Made by a program: the position numbers
Part shown: one piece after another, positions 47,901 to 53,900 of the stretch
Position numbering within the stretch: position 1 is the stretch's first letter
Layout: each line of letters starts with the position of its first letter
Assembly: GCA_036785375.1 (NCBI GenBank)
Contig: JAWMAR010000402.1
Coordinates: 744,001 to 808,000 of the forward strand
Reading direction: 5' to 3'
Source: Leucoraja ocellata
Taxonomy: Eukaryota
DNA length: 64,000 nucleotides

Positions 47901-50900
47901 AACTCATAACTTGAGTTCTTCCAGTCCTGTAGCTGTTGTGATCCAGAGCAGAGGAAACACCACCAACTCCTTGCTTAAAAAGGTTTATTTAAACTTATTG
48001 GATTCTGGTTCCTGCAAATACGTTTCATCACCGGCACACCTTTAGAATTCATCAGAGCTATTTTCTGGATTTCTTTTAATGATCACAATTCTCTTTTCTC
48101 TGGTGCACTTAAACTCATTTTACTGCACTCCATTTTTGAGCATTCTTCTTGTAAGTGAGAATTTAGGAAAGAGTTCCACTTAGTTTCAAAACATTACCAC
48201 AGTAAATTCACATATGTTTAAACATTCACCTAAACCAGGCATTTTTAAACTATTGCATTGTCAAATCCAAATCAATAATTAAGACATATCTATAATTAAA
48301 AATTACCAACTTTATCCATCCCAACTCACGTGGAGATAACTGCAGCATCGCCAAATGTTTTAATGTTACGATCGACAAATTTACCAGATTGGTCAAACCA
48401 AACCAATTGCTCTCAGTGCAATTTTAATACACTAACCTCAAAGCTTGATCAATTGCAAATCCTAGATTTTTATTTTATCCATTAAAAATCGTTGGGAACG
48501 GAGATAAAATTCTTGAATAGTAACAGTGTGTTCAATATGTTTTAGGTCATGGCCTGAAGCAGCTCAGCAAAATGCCATATCAAACCTCTGACGCTGTATA
48601 TGCCAGAACACTCTTGTTCAAAAATTCCTGTAGATTCACATTAGGATCACTGAGGTCCAATTGAAGGAACGTATCTGCCAATGCTTTGTATGTTTCCAAC
48701 TGGTTTGCTTTTGTAGGACAGTCAAGACGACAAATGGGTTGTCCACTGCGATATAGTTCAGATATCTGTGTCCCTCGCTTCACCACCTCTGGTGGCATCC
48801 CAGCCAGTGTAGCTATATTGGCAGCGTAGCTGTCGGTAGAAACACCGTCCTTTAGCTGGTAGAAAAACACCAGCTCCTCCCCATCCTGTATGGTCTCCAG
48901 CATTAGGTAACGTATTAGGTTAATAGTAGGGAGTAGTTGTAGCTGAACTAAACTATGAAAATTGGTAGATACAAAGATATGCGGGCACTTCACATCTTGC
49001 TGCACCCAATGCCTTAAAACAGCTGCAAGAAGTGATAAGCCATCAACACTGTTGGTTCCTTTTCCAAACTCATCAATTAGTACTAGAGATCTCTCTGTAG
49101 CACTGTTAACTGCAGCAGCCACCTGATTTAAGTCTATGATAAATGTGGAGAGCCCCACAGACACTGATTCACGACTTTGGATCCTCGTGTAAATACCATC
49201 TATTAATCCAATTTCTGCATCTGTGGCAGGTACATAACTACCTATTAGTGCCATGAATACTATTAGGCCAACCTCCTTGAGATATACACTTTTGCCACTG
49301 GAATTTGGACCAGTGAGGATACTTATCTTTCCATGTTCTCCACCAGTACTGATAGGGTTTGAAACAAATGTCCTTGTGCACATTTCCATGAGAGGATGTC
49401 TTCCATCTTTAATATTGATTATATTCTTGCTGGTTAACCTTGGCCTTATATAGGTATTTTCTCGGGCCACAACAGCCATGGCAATTAAGCAATCCAAATG
49501 AGCTGTATATTCCATCACATCGAAAAGAACTGCAGACTTCTCCAAAACCTTTACCTGCAGCTGGTACATGACAGCTGTCTCAAGGTCCCGGATTTCACAA
49601 TGCAAGTCTCCCAACATTGTATCAAGCTCTTTGGTTCTGGCACTTCTATAATGAAGCCTACCCTCGGATAGAAACATGAAATCCAGTCCCTCTATTTCAA
49701 AATCATCCTTGTCTACCATGCTTGGAAGGCGTGGAATAGTGAGAAGAAATCCTATCAGAGGGATGTAGATAACACAGCATGAAGGAATCCTGCTGTCTAG
49801 TAGGGTTAGTTCATTCCTTGCTACTTCAGTTAAGAAATCTGACAGACCCATCAGTTTACGTTTTTTCTCATCTATAGCTGGGTCCACGTTTGGCCGAACA
49901 GTGAATCTGTTCTCCGTATTACTACCTTCAAAATCCACCACTTTTGTTATGAGACTGGCAATATAATGAAGATCATCTGTGAAAGTGTGAGAGATCTTTG
50001 CAAAGAGCTCTACAGATCTGGGCAGGGATGTGCAAGTGTCTCCAATGCACACAGCGTTGTACACTGTCTTATAAAGGGCTTGCCAGTCACTCACTTTGGT
50101 GTACGATAGTGTCATCCTTTTCAGAATTGATGGGACATTTCTGATGTGTTTCAAGCAGTCCTGAAGCGTCTGCACTATCTCAGTGTTTCTTGCCAGCATG
50201 AAAAACTGGATGGCATCCAGCCTCTTGTTCAGCTCCTCCGGGTTTATCGTAGGACGCATGAACCACAGCCTCATCAGCTTTGTCCCCCATTGGGATCTGC
50301 AGCGATTCATAACTCCGAACAAGCTGAGTCCTTCTTTCACCCCTGACGCCAGTTTGTACACAGATGGGTGCACCTCTGACTTAAAAATCTGCAACACGCA
50401 GTAAGCGTCTTGGTCAATGTGAACGATGTCATTAAGGACAAATTTCTTGATTGCCAGGATGGGGACGCTCACGCTGGGATCTTCTAATTCCACTCCAATC
50501 CTCCTCCTCTCTATAAACTTCAGAAGCCCCCCGAGTGCTCGCAACATGGTGGTGCACTCGAATGGGATGATTGCCGCCAGGTACACGATCTTCTCTGCTT
50601 CGGTCAGATGAGAGGGGACAAAGGGCAAGTTGGCAGACAGCACCCGCTGCTTGCTGATATTGAGCCCAAAGTCCACGTTGGGGAAGAGAGCTATTTCTGG
50701 CTTCCCATCCTCTCCGTTGTTGGCCGTCCCCATTGCTTGGAGGAAGTCCGCCATAATGTGGTCTTGCTTCGCACTTGTTAAGATGCACCGGGGCTGGATT
50801 TCTTCCAATACTTTCTTCAGCAACTTGAGATCCTGTGAGTCGGGGGTATCGGACATGATGTAAACGGTACAGTCATTTGCGTTGTAGTAAGCGAGCCCGA

Positions 50901-53900
50901 GCTGTCCGCTGTGCCACAGGACGCTCGCATACACCTCGGGCTGGGTGGAGGCATCCGCGTCATCCACCACAGCCGTTGTCGGTGGAGCAGAGTTATTCAT
51001 TGGGGCATTCGTTTTATAATCCTGCACACGTTAGGCTTCATCCCCGCGGTTTATTTACACCGCCATTTCCGACTTCCAGGGCGGCCACGAATGTGACCGC
51101 GGTTGGCTGCAGTCGCGCGTGGGGGCGATTGGCATGGAGTGTCGTGCGGTCCCGGTCTCCCGAGCGAGGGAGGTGGCGGTTGGGCACGTGTCGCGCGCGG
51201 TCCGGTTCCCCGAGCGAGGGAGGCGGCGGTTGGGCCCGTGTCGCGCGCGATCCGGTTCTCCCGCGCGAGGGAGGTGACGGTTGGGCCCGTGTCGCGCGCG
51301 ATCCGGTTCTCCCGCGCGAGGGGGGAGGTGGCGGCTTCTCCCCATATCCCTTGACTCCACCTGCCCCGAGAGTAACACTCCCTTAAATCCATCCAGTGAC
51401 TTGGCCTCCACTGCACTCTGTGGCAGGGTATTCCATAAATTCACAACTCTCCGAGTGAACATTTTTTTTCTCACCTCAGTCTTAAATGACCTCCCCTTTA
51501 TTCTAAGACTGGCCCCTGGTTCTGGACTCGCCCAACATTGGGAACATTTTTCCTGCATCTAGCTTGTCCAGTCCTTTTATAATTTTAAATGTTTCTACAA
51601 GATCCCCCTCATCATTCTAAACCCCAGGTGTCCGGGGCAATTAATCAATGGATGAGGAATTGGGACACAGAGAGAATGGCATTTCGTTTGCACGAGTGCC
51701 TTTGATGAAGTTGAATTTTAGTTAAAAATATAAGAAGATATTAAATTGGCTTCTGGGCTAGCTTACAGCTTATATTTAGTCTCAAATTAGGCTTGCCTCA
51801 GGTTGCGGTGTGTGAGATAATAAATACTATAACATTGTCTCCCAAGTGGCAAGCAGAGAGGAGCTAGATCTCTTTGATGTATTGGATGTAAGGTGTCGTA
51901 AACCAAGTGTCCTATGTTTATGAGGGACCAAGTGACGAGAGAGGAAGCAGAGGAGCTAGCTAGAGTCATCTCTTTGAAGTACGATGTCGTAAACCAAGTG
52001 TCCTATGTTTATGAGGGAGGAGGTGACAAGAGAGGAGAAGCTAGACTGATCTAAGGGATTGTGACAAAATGCCTTTGATGTGATGCCTTTTCCTGTACCT
52101 CTGACCATGACTAATGTCTGTGGAATGTGCTAAGGTGACAAAGAAACATTATAAAATGCGATGTAATTCTGTTGTTCAAAGAAGGTGGATGAGGACGGTG
52201 AAGTGTCTGTAATTGCTCACTTGACTGGAGTTCTCCCTCCCTTCCATCGGCCGATAATAAATACATTTTTGAACTGGTCTACCAAACAGTTTGTGTGGTG
52301 TCTGTTTATTAAGAAGCGAACCTGTTTAGTTGTTATAAAATTAACTTTTTCACCTTGGGACTCGGTATACAAGGCAAGGCCATGAATGGCATTTTCAACT
52401 CGACTGGGACATGATGAAGGTTCCAAAGACTGTAACTAGGGCAGGGTGATGGCAAGTTCAGTACTTTCAAATTAGAAGCACTCAGTATTTAATAAGATCA
52501 TGTCTATGAGTCATAGAGTATAGAAGTGAGATCGACCGACTGACCGAATGGTGCCAACACAACAACCTGGATCTCAACATCAGTAAGACCAAGGAACTGA
52601 TTGCGGACTTTAGTAGGGGAAGGACGAGTACCCACAATTCTGTTTATATCAACGGGACAATGGTGGAGAGAGTCAATAACTTCAAATTCCTGGGCGTGCA
52701 TGTAATCAGAAGATCTTTCCTAGACCCAGCACACCAATGCAATTATAAAGAAGGCACATTAGCGACTCTACTTCCTGAGAAGATTACGGGGATTCAGCAT
52801 GTCGAAGAGGATTCTCCTAAACTACAGGTGCATGGTAGAGAGCATTCTGACTGGTTGCATCGTGGCCTGGTTCGGCAACTTGAATGTCCAGGAGTGAAAA
52901 AGACTACAAAAAGTTGTGACCACTGCCCAGTCTATCACTGGCTTTGACCTCCCCACCGTCGAAGGGATCTATCGTAGTCGCTGCCTCAAAAAGGCAGCCA
53001 AAATCATCAAGGACCTACACCATCCTGGCCACACACTTATCTCACCACTGGCATCAGAAAGAAGGTACAGGAGCCTGAAAACTGTAACGTTCTGGTTCAG
53101 GAACAGCTACTTCCCCACAGCCACTTCCCCACAGCCACCAGGCTATTAAACACAACAAATAAGCTATGAGCTTTGAACTGCAGAAGACTATTATTTGTTA
53201 TTTGCACTATATTTGTTATTTATTGAACTTTTTGTTTTTTTCCCCGTTATATACAATGTTTACATATTCACATATTCTGTTGTGCTGTAGCAAGTAAGAA
53301 TTTCATTGTCCCATCCGGGACATAAGACAATAAAACACTCTCGAGTTGACTCAACTCCACATACCTATCTACTTGCAGTAATCTTTCACCTTCCTTGCTT
53401 ATCAAGTTGCTATTTACCTCAGCCTTAAAATATTCAATTACAGTCCTTCCATCATACTTGGAGAGAGTCCTCGAAAAGCTCACAATCCTCTCATGAGAAA
53501 ACATTTGTCTCTGTCTTAAATAAATGACCCTTTATTTTTAAACGGTGATCACCTAGTGCCAGATTCTTCCGCAAAAAACATCCTGTTCACATTCACATTG
53601 TTCTCTCACAATTGTATATATTTCAATAGCGGCCTCCTTCAATCTTTTAAACTTACAAGACTTGTCTGTCAACCTACCTCATTGACAATTTACCCACTCC
53701 AGATATGACTCGAGTAAACCTGCTCTGAACTGCTTTATTTAAGAAGGGAGCCTAAACTACATGTACTACTCCAGACGTAGTCTCACCAATCCACTGTATA
53801 ATTGAAGCATTATTTCCTAACTTTTGAAATTAATTGTTCTCCCAATAAAAAAAAAATGGCTTTCCTAATTACCTCATTAAGCTTACTAATTTCCTAATCA

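What the first reader, a model, noticed from the sequence alone, without database searches (positions are those of the whole stretch)
48580..51000. Intact, intronless MSH5: a probable functional retrogene parked between two collagen genes
Seen: a 2421-nt ORF with no intron, stop or frameshift and intact ATPase motifs. It has its own CpG-island promoter and poly(A) signals, with no residual poly(A) tract or TSD, while nearly every mobile-element ORF around it is decayed. Established: mammalian MSH5, the meiotic crossover MutS-gamma subunit, is a multi-exon gene in the MHC class III region, not beside COL21A1. Inference: an ancient retroposition relocated this meiotic gene and may have replaced the MHC-linked parent in this lineage.
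Basis: partly seen in the sequence, partly recalled or inferred. Interest (0 to 1): 0.85.

Follow-up and report, generated by a model that had tools for sequence, protein, structure and literature searches.

The report
Intronless MSH5 gene in little skate
The little skate's only detectable copy of the meiotic crossover gene MSH5 is a conserved, evidently working gene with no introns in its coding sequence, lying between two collagen genes in a position that sharks and rays appear to share, so it is probably a very old RNA-derived copy that replaced the original.

Summary
Window 48580-51000 (minus strand) is an uninterrupted 806-codon ORF. It is 805/806 identical to RefSeq MSH5 of Leucoraja erinacea and collinear end to end with MSH5 orthologues, with intact Walker A and B motifs. 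A CpG island covers its 5' end, AATAAA signals lie downstream, and there is no poly(A) tract or target-site duplication. It lies between the last three exons of a FACIT "collagen IX-like" gene and the first exons of COL21A1, all on one strand.

The gene is functional, not a pseudogene. It is 84-89% identical to shark and ray MSH5, keeps 334 of 354 near-invariant columns, and shows no rate acceleration in skates. Only one MSH5 was seen per elasmobranch species.

MSH5 and COL21A1 carry consecutive NCBI accessions in 5 of 14 elasmobranch species, both sharks and rays, but not in lizards. In coelacanth, lungfish and amphibians they sit on different chromosomes. The position is therefore ancient within elasmobranchs.

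Ancient retroposition with loss of the parent is the best reading (about 0.55). In-place intron loss through a cDNA intermediate is not excluded (about 0.3). Gene structures in other species could not be reached. This is a new member of a known kind (orphan retrogene) and of moderate interest.

The parts
48580..51000 (-). MSH5 coding sequence, a single uninterrupted exon (806 codons plus stop)
50750..51500 (.). CpG island over the 5' end of the CDS and about 500 nt upstream; presumed promoter
   Evidence: GC 0.60-0.62, CpG o/e 1.09-1.14; promoter function inferred, not tested
51152..51322 (.). 51-bp GC-rich tandem repeat, 3.4 copies, forming the core of the CpG island 150-320 nt upstream of the ATG
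   Evidence: (92% matches)
51335..51631 (.). interspersed-repeat fragment that bounds the unique gene segment upstream
   Evidence: 7 other copies in the window, 70-79% identity
47984..48579 (-). presumed 3' UTR, with AATAAA at 48474 (+106 from the stop) and 47989 (+591); no poly(A) tract
   Evidence: actual use of these signals not tested
46425..47048 (.). interspersed repeat of the same family, bounding the unique 4.3-kb gene segment (47049-51334) downstream
55975..56145 (-). terminal coding exon of the upstream FACIT collagen ('collagen alpha-1(IX) chain-like'), ending ...GVCRPTVCN; stop codon at 55972-55974
   Evidence: 81% to Amblyraja XP_032877743/4, aa 1004-1060
56918..57007 (-). penultimate exon of the same collagen gene
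   Evidence: 90%, aa 986-1015
60153..60254 (-). antepenultimate exon of the same collagen gene
   Evidence: 94%, aa 958-991
14713..15309 (-). COL21A1 exon encoding the VWA domain (aa ~3-220)
   Evidence: Pfam VWA 1.5e-46; 86-95% to elasmobranch COL21A1
8626..9186 (-). COL21A1 exon(s), aa ~197-352
1666..2058 (-). COL21A1 exon(s), aa ~338-440; the gene runs off the window start

Best explanation
This is the little skate's single working MSH5 gene. MSH5 is the partner of MSH4 in the MutS-gamma clamp that stabilises meiotic crossover intermediates (the function is taken from established knowledge of the family). Its whole coding sequence is one exon, so it descends from a spliced mRNA.

The most likely history is this. 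In a germ cell of an early elasmobranch, or an earlier chondrichthyan, MSH5 mRNA was reverse-transcribed and inserted between two tandem FACIT collagen genes. The copy acquired or built a CpG-island promoter; today's island consists largely of a 51-bp tandem repeat abutting a transposon fragment. The copy took over the function and the multi-exon parent was lost, making it an 'orphan retrogene'. Its poly(A) tail and target-site duplications have since eroded.

Shown: an intact, constrained, intron-free CDS; its neighbours; its flanking features; and evidence that the neighbourhood is shared across elasmobranchs. Inferred: the RNA intermediate, the timing, promoter recruitment and loss of the parent.
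For: Intact and intron-free.
- The 806-codon ORF is collinear with orthologues from gar to opossum.
- Those orthologues show block deletions and isoforms typical of multi-exon genes. Six bird proteins lack the same 27 aa. Opossum isoforms X2, X3 and X5 differ from X1 by blocks.

Function.
- It is 84-89% identical to shark and ray MSH5 and 62-75% identical to bony-vertebrate MSH5.
- It retains 334 of 354 columns that are at least 95% invariant in 103 bony-vertebrate proteins. Its 20 departures are mostly conservative, and 11 of them recur at the same positions in all seven other elasmobranchs compared.
- The tree of 33 proteins gives one elasmobranch clade (100/100) that follows the species tree. 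Skate root-to-tip length is 0.065, against 0.064-0.080 for three of the four other ray lineages and 0.035 for Pristis.
- MSH5 (99% to Amblyraja, 96% to Rhinoraja) is at least as conserved as the neighbouring collagen exons: 81-94% to Amblyraja and 95% to Rhinoraja.

Old position.
- COL21A1 and MSH5 have consecutive accessions in Amblyraja (...741, 742, then the collagen IX-like gene at 743/744, reproducing the order in the window), Narcine, Heptranchias, S. canicula and S. torazame. In S. torazame the GenBank numbers GCB66856 and GCB66857 are also consecutive. That is 5 of 14 species.
- A further 3 of 14 species are within 50 numbers, and 14 of 14 share one chromosome-sized record.

Position differs in bony vertebrates.
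- Four lizards have both genes on the same chromosome but 383-993 accessions apart.
- Coelacanth, lungfish and five amphibians have them on different records.
- Human MSH5 is listed among the class III genes between CLIC1 and C6orf26/C6orf27/VARS2, and zebrafish msh5 is on chromosome 15 (PMC1309616, passages read).

Single copy.
- One MSH5 per species in 22 elasmobranch species, isoforms aside.
- No other MSH5 fragment anywhere in the 64-kb window, even at E<=10.

Hint that rays are also intron-free.
- Hypanus isoform X2 lacks exactly Val720-Gln745 (26 aa), not the 27-aa ancestral exon. In the skate DNA that block starts GT and ends AG.
- It therefore reads as a 78-nt mini-intron inside a continuous exon. 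That could not exist if the ancestral introns flanked it (inference).

Weaker hints.
- Draft and RefSeq models of shark MSH5 are identical in S. torazame and C. punctatum, whereas the draft COL21A1 model is half length.
- Only 2 of 22 elasmobranch species list MSH5 isoforms.
Against: - No poly(A) remnant and no target-site duplication. Erosion over hundreds of millions of years explains this, but it means no positive hallmark of LINE-mediated insertion remains.
- Exon-intron structures of MSH5 in other elasmobranchs and in Callorhinchus were not seen.
- The Narcine X2 isoform breaks at skate codon 767, where a gar isoform also breaks. The Hypanus X2 block lies within one codon of an ancestral exon. 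Both could instead mean that those rays keep introns. In that case the skate's state would be a later change at the same locus.
- The inference from accession order rests on a recalled habit of NCBI numbering. That habit fails in Leucoraja itself, where the numbers are 138 apart although the genes lie 33 kb apart.
- In amniotes MSH5 and COL21A1 share a chromosome, so an ancestral loose linkage followed by ordinary rearrangement is possible.
- No Callorhinchus MSH5 appeared among the 120 hits listed of 935.
Confidence: 0.55

Rival explanations
1. Intron loss in place. MSH5 reached the collagen neighbourhood as an ordinary multi-exon gene, or that neighbourhood is ancestral. All coding introns were later erased when a reverse-transcribed MSH5 cDNA recombined with the resident gene. 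The native promoter and 3' end were kept. This could have happened in the skate lineage only or earlier.
For: - It explains directly why there is a promoter CpG island, ordinary poly(A) signals, no poly(A) tail and no target-site duplication.
- The locus is the same as in other elasmobranchs.
- The ray isoforms break at or next to ancestral exon junctions: Narcine X2 at codon 767, as in gar X2, and Hypanus X2 within one codon of the 27-aa bird block.
- There are no relic MSH5 exons in the window.
- MSH5 is germline-expressed (established knowledge), which this mechanism requires.
Against: - Simultaneous loss of every coding intron by gene conversion is rarely documented in vertebrates (recalled, not searched). 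It would need a second event, a DNA-level relocation, to explain the difference from bony vertebrates.
- The Hypanus X2 block is 26 aa, not 27, and is bounded by GT and AG. It does not fit skipping of a real exon.
- The skate stem shows no rate change, though none is required under this model.
Confidence: 0.3
2. A young processed pseudogene, or a redundant retrocopy with a multi-exon parent still doing the work elsewhere in the skate genome.
For: Intron-free copies of germline genes are usually pseudogenes (general knowledge). The rest of the skate genome was not searched.
Against: - The full 806-codon frame is open, and 334 of 354 near-invariant columns are kept.
- It is 96-99% identical to two other skates and 84-89% to sharks and rays that diverged far earlier.
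- The tree follows the species tree with no long branch.
- This is the protein RefSeq names MSH5 in three skate species. No second skate MSH5 appears in the clusters or among the best 120 of 935 hits.
Confidence: 0.02
3. An assembly artefact or cDNA contamination placed a spliced MSH5 sequence into the contig.
For: None specific. It is a generic concern for any intron-free copy of a multi-exon gene.
Against: - The ORF is embedded in ordinary genomic flanks with a CpG island, tandem repeat and interspersed repeats.
- Independent assemblies of Amblyraja and Rhinoraja give near-identical proteins on chromosome-sized records next to the same collagen genes.
- The window differs from the RefSeq protein at one residue, so this is a second independent sequence of the same locus.
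Confidence: 0.01

Closest known systems
Vertebrate MSH5 (MutS-gamma subunit, partner of MSH4)
   Same: MutS domains III and V, no mismatch-binding domain I, intact Walker A and B motifs. It is full-length and collinear, 62-75% identical to bony-vertebrate MSH5, and falls in the MSH5 clade.
   Different: The coding sequence is intron-free. It is flanked by FACIT collagen genes rather than MHC class III genes (human order per PMC1309616, passages read).
Orphan retrogenes: retrocopies that outlived and replaced their parents (PMC3548309 and PMC4772013; search listing and abstract starts only)
   Same: An intron-free functional orthologue of a gene that is multi-exon elsewhere, in a different neighbourhood, with no parent detected in the lineage.
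   Different: There are no poly(A) or target-site-duplication remnants. The event would be very old and shared by a whole subclass. Parent loss and the retro mechanism are inferred, not demonstrated.
Teleost intron-less rhodopsin (PMC6650399; search listing and abstract start only)
   Same: A presumed retroduplicate that became the main working copy across a large fish clade.
   Different: [quoted passage not shown] For elasmobranch MSH5 no intron-containing partner was seen.
Germline retrogenes such as mouse Morc2b and Pdha2 (PMC5785033, PMC12377818; search listing and abstract starts only)
   Same: Meiosis-related genes that arose from mRNA of a germline-expressed parent.
   Different: Those are additional copies beside a retained parent and are lineage-restricted in mammals. 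Here the copy appears to be the only one.

Membership tests
MSH5 (eukaryotic MutS homologue 5) | MutS core (domain III) and ATPase (domain V) present | tested here: met
   Pfam MutS_III 6.9e-27 (aa 221-509) and MutS_V 1.3e-49 (aa 561-747); PDB MutS/MSH2/MSH3/MSH6 chains at E about 1e-38 to 1e-50
MSH5 (eukaryotic MutS homologue 5) | No N-terminal mismatch-binding domain I (feature recalled) | tested here: met
   No MutS_I hit at E<=0.001
MSH5 (eukaryotic MutS homologue 5) | Intact Walker A and Walker B ATPase motifs | tested here: met
   GPNSSGKS at aa 564-571 and [11 protein letters not shown] at aa 639-649; 7 of 8 and all 11 of these positions are invariant across the 11 species, the eighth (S568) nearly so
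MSH5 (eukaryotic MutS homologue 5) | Orthology: closest relatives are MSH5 and the gene tree follows the species tree | tested here: met
   Of the 120 listed hits, all that carry a descriptive name are named MSH5; 11 are unnamed and a few are labelled hypothetical protein. Elasmobranch clade 100/100, skates nested within rays
MSH5 (eukaryotic MutS homologue 5) | Forms a heterodimer with MSH4 and acts in meiotic crossover formation | not tested
   No MSH4 was sought, no complex prediction was run, and no expression data were available
Processed retrogene | Lacks the introns of a multi-exon parent | tested here: met
   Continuous ORF collinear with orthologues. The multi-exon state of orthologues is shown indirectly by block-wise isoforms and gaps and is otherwise recalled
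Processed retrogene | Poly(A) tract at the 3' end | tested here: not met
   Longest A run is 6 in the 2080 nt downstream; erosion is expected if the event is ancient
Processed retrogene | Flanking target-site duplications | tested here: not met
   Only 10-11-nt matches, at chance level or within repeat copies
Processed retrogene | Sits at a locus different from the parent's | tested here: inconclusive
   Beside COL21A1 in elasmobranchs and not adjacent in bony vertebrates. The pre-event chondrichthyan locus is unknown
Orphan retrogene | Parent gene absent from the genome | tested here: inconclusive
   One MSH5 protein per species in 22 elasmobranch species and none other in the window. No whole-genome search was possible
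CpG-island promoter | GC above 0.5-0.55 and CpG o/e above 0.6 over at least 200-500 nt at the gene's 5' end (criteria recalled) | tested here: met
   50750-51499: GC 0.60-0.62, o/e 1.09-1.14. Transcription start not tested
FACIT collagens (the neighbouring genes) | Short G-X-Y exons; two cysteines four residues apart just after the last triple helix (recalled); VWA and TSPN N-terminal domains in COL21A1 | tested here: met
   G-X-Y exons ending GVCRPTVCN. VWA exon 1.5e-46 and 86-95% to elasmobranch COL21A1

The most novel reading that the evidence does not exclude
Every living shark, ray and skate runs meiotic crossover control on an orphan MSH5 retrogene. A single retroposition before the elasmobranch crown dropped a processed MSH5 between two tandem FACIT collagen genes. 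The copy built a promoter from local sequence (a tandem repeat next to a transposon fragment), and the multi-exon parent was then lost. On this reading an essential meiotic gene has lacked its original regulatory setting for roughly 300 million years (age recalled).
Probability: 0.45. Interest if true: 0.6.

Novelty: new member of a known kind. Interest (0 to 1): 0.45.

Why it matters
MSH5 is essential for crossover formation and fertility in the animals where it has been tested (established knowledge). If a whole vertebrate subclass uses a retrocopy in place of the original, several things follow:
- Even core meiotic genes can survive wholesale replacement of their gene structure and promoter.
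- It would be a very old, datable orphan retrogene outside mammals.
- It offers a natural experiment on how germline-specific regulation is rebuilt.
- It warns that MHC class III linkage of MSH5 is not a vertebrate constant.

If the event turns out to be intron loss in place, it would be one of the more extreme cases in a vertebrate of all coding introns being erased at once.

Either way the gene itself is an ordinary, already annotated MSH5. The interest is evolutionary rather than mechanistic.

Tried and rejected
- **Extra MSH5 exons in the window.** tblastn with five MSH5 proteins at E<=10 found only the one locus.
- **Target-site duplications and a poly(A) tail.** None found. A 10-mer, TAAATAAACC, occurs both 48-57 nt upstream of the ATG and at the distal AATAAA, but this is at chance level.
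- **Ray isoforms as proof of introns.** I first read Hypanus X2 and Narcine X2 as proof that other rays keep introns. Closer inspection showed the Hypanus block is 26 aa, not 27, and is bounded by GT and AG in the skate DNA. I withdrew that conclusion. The evidence is ambiguous and, for Hypanus, leans the other way.
- **Opossum and sturgeon isoforms.** They gave junction hints elsewhere in the protein but did not settle the phases near codons 718-767.
- **Whale-shark draft model P0262.** It matches residues 1-281 exactly and then diverges. It says nothing about structure.
- **Accession order in bony vertebrates.** It shows no adjacency.
- **Literature.** Searches for MSH5 with intronless, with retrogene, with shark and MHC, and with COL21A1, and for class III neighbours in cartilaginous fish, found nothing on chondrichthyan MSH5 structure or position. 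A search for retrogene with cartilaginous fish listed 15 of 24 papers, none about MSH5.
- **RNA genes.** Rfam and tRNA scans of the window found nothing.
- **** failed because my coordinates were off by one codon; I corrected them.
- **Not attempted.**
  - dN/dS, because no orthologous coding DNA could be reached.
  - Structure or complex prediction, because it would not bear on the question.
  - The prokaryote genome collection, which is irrelevant here.
  - The metagenome and viral collections and papers' supplementary files, which were closed. Supplementary gene tables of shark or skate genome and MHC papers might list MSH5's position.

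
Full report
**What is there.** The window carries a 2421-nt ORF on the minus strand, 48580-51000 (806 codons, ATG to stop). The frame is open from 51030. Pfam finds MutS domains III and V and no domain I. The nearest solved structures are MutS, MSH2, MSH3 and MSH6 chains. In the protein collection the best hit is 'mutS protein homolog 5 [Leucoraja erinacea]'. A direct comparison gives 805/806 identity, with V11A the one difference. The window is therefore little-skate DNA, not human, and it holds no N. 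Of the 120 listed hits (out of 935), every one with a descriptive name is MSH5; 11 are unnamed and a few are labelled hypothetical protein. Rays are 89% identical, sharks 84-85%, turtles about 72% and mammals about 62%.

**Intron-free and intact.** Aligned with ten orthologues from manta ray to opossum, the skate protein is collinear from end to end. Walker A (GPNSSGKS, aa 564-571) and Walker B ([11 protein letters not shown], aa 639-649) lie in invariant or nearly invariant columns. I aligned 127 named MSH5 proteins, leaving out eleven unnamed Logan proteins, the human cluster, two unnamed skate-like Logan proteins and one fragment. In that alignment bony-vertebrate entries show the block-wise gaps and isoforms typical of multi-exon genes. 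Six bird proteins lack the same 27 aa. Amphibian and coelacanth entries start at position 49 or 128. Opossum isoforms differ from one another by blocks. None of these junctions is interrupted in the skate DNA. That MSH5 is multi-exon in mammals is otherwise recalled, not measured here.

**Flanks.**
- A CpG island spans about 50750-51500 (GC 0.60-0.62, CpG o/e 1.09-1.14). Its core is a 51-bp tandem repeat, 3.4 copies, at 51152-51322. The repeat abuts an interspersed-repeat fragment at 51335-51631 that has seven other copies in the window.
- Downstream there are AATAAA signals 106 and 591 nt after the stop. There is no A run longer than 6 and no flanking direct repeat longer than 11 nt.
- The unique segment carrying the gene is 47049-51334. 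It is bounded on both sides by separate copies of one repeat family.
- No other MSH5-like fragment exists in the 64 kb.

**Neighbours.** I searched the neighbouring spliced genes exon by exon and built no joined model.
- The VWA-domain exon at 14713-15309 (Pfam VWA, 1.5e-46) is COL21A1. It is 95% identical to Rhinoraja, 86-90% to seven other elasmobranch COL21A1 entries and about 70% to tetrapods. Further COL21A1 exons lie at 8626-9186 and 1666-2058.
- The only G-X-Y exons in the window lie at 60153-60254, 56918-57007 and 55975-56145. They are the last three coding exons of the orthologue of Amblyraja 'collagen alpha-1(IX) chain-like' (94, 90 and 81% identity), ending ...GVCRPTVCN.
- The closest Callorhinchus relative of this upstream gene is annotated collagen XXI and carries a VWA domain. 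It matches the window's COL21A1 VWA exon at only 41.5%. The two neighbours are therefore FACIT paralogues in tandem.
- All three genes are on the minus strand. MSH5 starts about 5 kb downstream of the upstream collagen's stop. Its distal poly(A) signal lies about 33 kb upstream of the COL21A1 VWA exon.

**Is it working?**
- No coding DNA of orthologues could be reached, so dN/dS was not computed.
- At protein level the skate keeps 334 of 354 columns that are at least 95% invariant among 103 bony-vertebrate proteins. The 20 departures are mostly conservative (L>V/I, S>A, K>R, T>S, M>I). Eleven recur at the same positions in all seven other elasmobranchs compared, which themselves show 17-25 departures.
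- A maximum-likelihood tree of 33 named proteins puts all 20 elasmobranch sequences in one clade (100/100), with rays and sharks as sister groups and skates nested within rays. Lengths from the ray node to the tips are 0.065 for Leucoraja, 0.068 for Rhinoraja, 0.065 for Mobula, 0.064 for Hypanus, 0.080 for Narcine and 0.035 for Pristis. There is no acceleration in skates.
- MSH5 is 99% identical to Amblyraja and 96% to Rhinoraja. It is at least as conserved as the neighbouring collagen exons.
- A pseudogene could not keep this. Expression was not tested.

**How old is the position?** The protein-cluster look-ups give accession numbers and the length of the carrying record.
- In 14 of 14 elasmobranch species where both genes were listed, MSH5 and COL21A1 sit on a record of identical chromosome-scale length.
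- In 5 of 14 the NCBI accessions are consecutive:
  - Amblyraja: COL21A1 ...741, MSH5 ...742, collagen IX-like ...743/744, which is exactly the order in the window.
  - Narcine: ...142, then 143/144.
  - Heptranchias: ...351, 352.
  - S. canicula: ...571-573, then 574.
  - S. torazame: ...539, 540, and also GenBank GCB66856 and GCB66857.
- Three more species are within 50 numbers: Rhincodon 11, Hemiscyllium 14, Rhinoraja 48.
- Six are far apart. One of these is Leucoraja itself (138 apart), where the window shows physical adjacency. Non-consecutive numbers therefore say nothing.
- That Gnomon numbers tend to follow genome order is recalled. The Amblyraja order is an internal check on it.
- The five species include a hexanchiform shark, two catsharks, an electric ray and a skate. 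The neighbourhood therefore predates the shark-ray split.
- In bony vertebrates I saw no adjacency. Four lizards have both genes on one chromosome but 383-993 accessions apart. Three marsupials also share a record for the two genes. Coelacanth, lungfish and five amphibians carry them on different records.
- The human class III list in PMC1309616 (passages read) places MSH5 between CLIC1 and C6orf26/C6orf27/VARS2, and zebrafish msh5 on chromosome 15.

**Are other elasmobranchs intron-free?** This is the key unknown, and no tool here reaches eukaryotic gene structures.
- *Hypanus X2.* This isoform lacks 26 aa (skate 720-745). It lies within one codon of the 27-aa block missing in six bird proteins. 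That looks like exon skipping, but a true skip of the 81-nt exon would also remove Gly719, which is retained. The removed block begins with a Val codon (GT...) and, in the skate, ends CAG. It reads as a 78-nt GT-AG mini-intron inside a continuous exon. Such an intron could not exist if real introns flanked that exon. This leans towards Hypanus also being intron-free there (inference).
- *Narcine X2.* It diverges at codon 767, where a gar isoform also diverges. In the skate the sequence AAC CAG TTG offers a GT donor across the old junction. The observation fits either a retained phase-2 intron or a fused junction, so it remains ambiguous.
- *Weaker hints of a simple structure in sharks.* The 2018 draft and current RefSeq proteins are identical in S. 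torazame and C. punctatum, whereas the draft COL21A1 model beside it is 491 aa against 985 aa. Only 2 of 22 elasmobranch species list MSH5 isoforms.

**Explanation and rivals.**
- An RNA intermediate is the only known way to remove every coding intron at once (established knowledge).
- I favour an ancient retroposition between the two collagen genes followed by loss of the parent, at about 0.55. One event then accounts for both the intron-free structure and a neighbourhood that differs from bony vertebrates but is shared by sharks and rays. The missing poly(A) tail and target-site duplications are expected at that age.
- The main rival, at about 0.3, is intron loss in place by recombination with a cDNA, at a locus that was already beside COL21A1. 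It explains the native-looking promoter and 3' end without further assumptions. It would be favoured if other elasmobranchs prove to be multi-exon.
- A young pseudogene, a redundant copy or an assembly artefact are each very unlikely, for the reasons given above.

**Novelty.** The gene is already annotated as MSH5. Searches of the paper library found no description of an intron-free or retro-derived MSH5 or of its collagen neighbourhood. The searches were MSH5 with intronless, with retrogene, with shark and MHC, and with COL21A1, and class III neighbours in cartilaginous fish. Papers outside the library and supplementary files were not seen. Orphan retrogenes are a known class (PMC3548309, PMC4772013; listing and abstract starts only). 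This is therefore a new member of a known kind, of moderate interest.

**Left open.**
- Gene structures and genome-wide copy number in skate, sharks and chimaera.
- The location of the MHC and of MSH5's usual neighbours in elasmobranchs.
- dN/dS.
- Gonadal expression and the transcription start.
- Long-read support for the assembly.

Noticed in passing
window 51152-51322: A 51-bp GC-rich tandem repeat (3.4 copies, 92% matches) makes up the core of the CpG island just upstream of the MSH5 start codon, directly abutting a truncated interspersed repeat. The promoter region may therefore have been built from local repeat sequence.
   Followed up: partly
window 46425-47048 and 51335-51631: Two separate copies of one interspersed-repeat family (66-79% identical to five to seven other copies in the window) bracket the unique 4.3-kb segment that carries MSH5. 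They cover overlapping parts of the element, so they are not one element split by an insertion.
   Followed up: yes
window 51048-51057 and 47982-47991: The 10-mer TAAATAAACC occurs 48-57 nt upstream of the ATG and again at the distal poly(A) signal. This is at chance level for flanks of this size and composition, so I do not take it as a target-site duplication.
   Followed up: yes
window 55975-60254 versus Callorhinchus P0264: The upstream collagen is named 'collagen IX-like' in Amblyraja, but its closest chimaera relative is annotated 'collagen XXI' and has a VWA domain. The two collagens flanking MSH5 look like tandem FACIT paralogues with inconsistent public names.
   Followed up: partly
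Hypanus sabinus XP_059837254 (P0248), aligned to window codons 720-745: The annotated isoform X2 removes a 26-aa block one codon short of an ancestral 27-aa exon. In the skate DNA the block is bounded by GT and AG. It looks like a mini-intron called inside a continuous exon.
   Followed up: partly
window 50968-50970 (codon 11): The window encodes Val at residue 11 where RefSeq XP_055491051 has Ala. This is the only difference in 806 residues, so the window comes from another haplotype, individual or assembly version.
   Followed up: yes
window 31152-32876 (+) and 28830-29774 (-): The largest mobile-element frame (575 aa) carries aspartyl protease, reverse transcriptase and RNase H domains of an LTR-type element. 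A 315-aa reverse-transcriptase frame also matches Pfam ALKBH8_N (3.1e-14), an odd pairing that I did not pursue.
   Followed up: no
window 36000-42000; 40791-40905: There is strongly negative GC skew (-0.28 to -0.35) and AT skew over about 6 kb that holds reverse-transcriptase frames, and a 22-bp tandem repeat (5.2 copies, 96% matches).
   Followed up: no
window 51857-51945 and 51949-52036: An 89-bp direct tandem duplication (81% identical) lies about 900 nt upstream of the MSH5 start.
   Followed up: no
Leucoraja XP_055491051 (MSH5) versus XP_055490913 (COL21A1-like): The accession numbers are 138 apart although the genes lie 33 kb apart in the window. NCBI numbering is therefore not strictly positional in every annotation run. 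This limits the accession-order argument to the cases where numbers are consecutive.
   Followed up: yes
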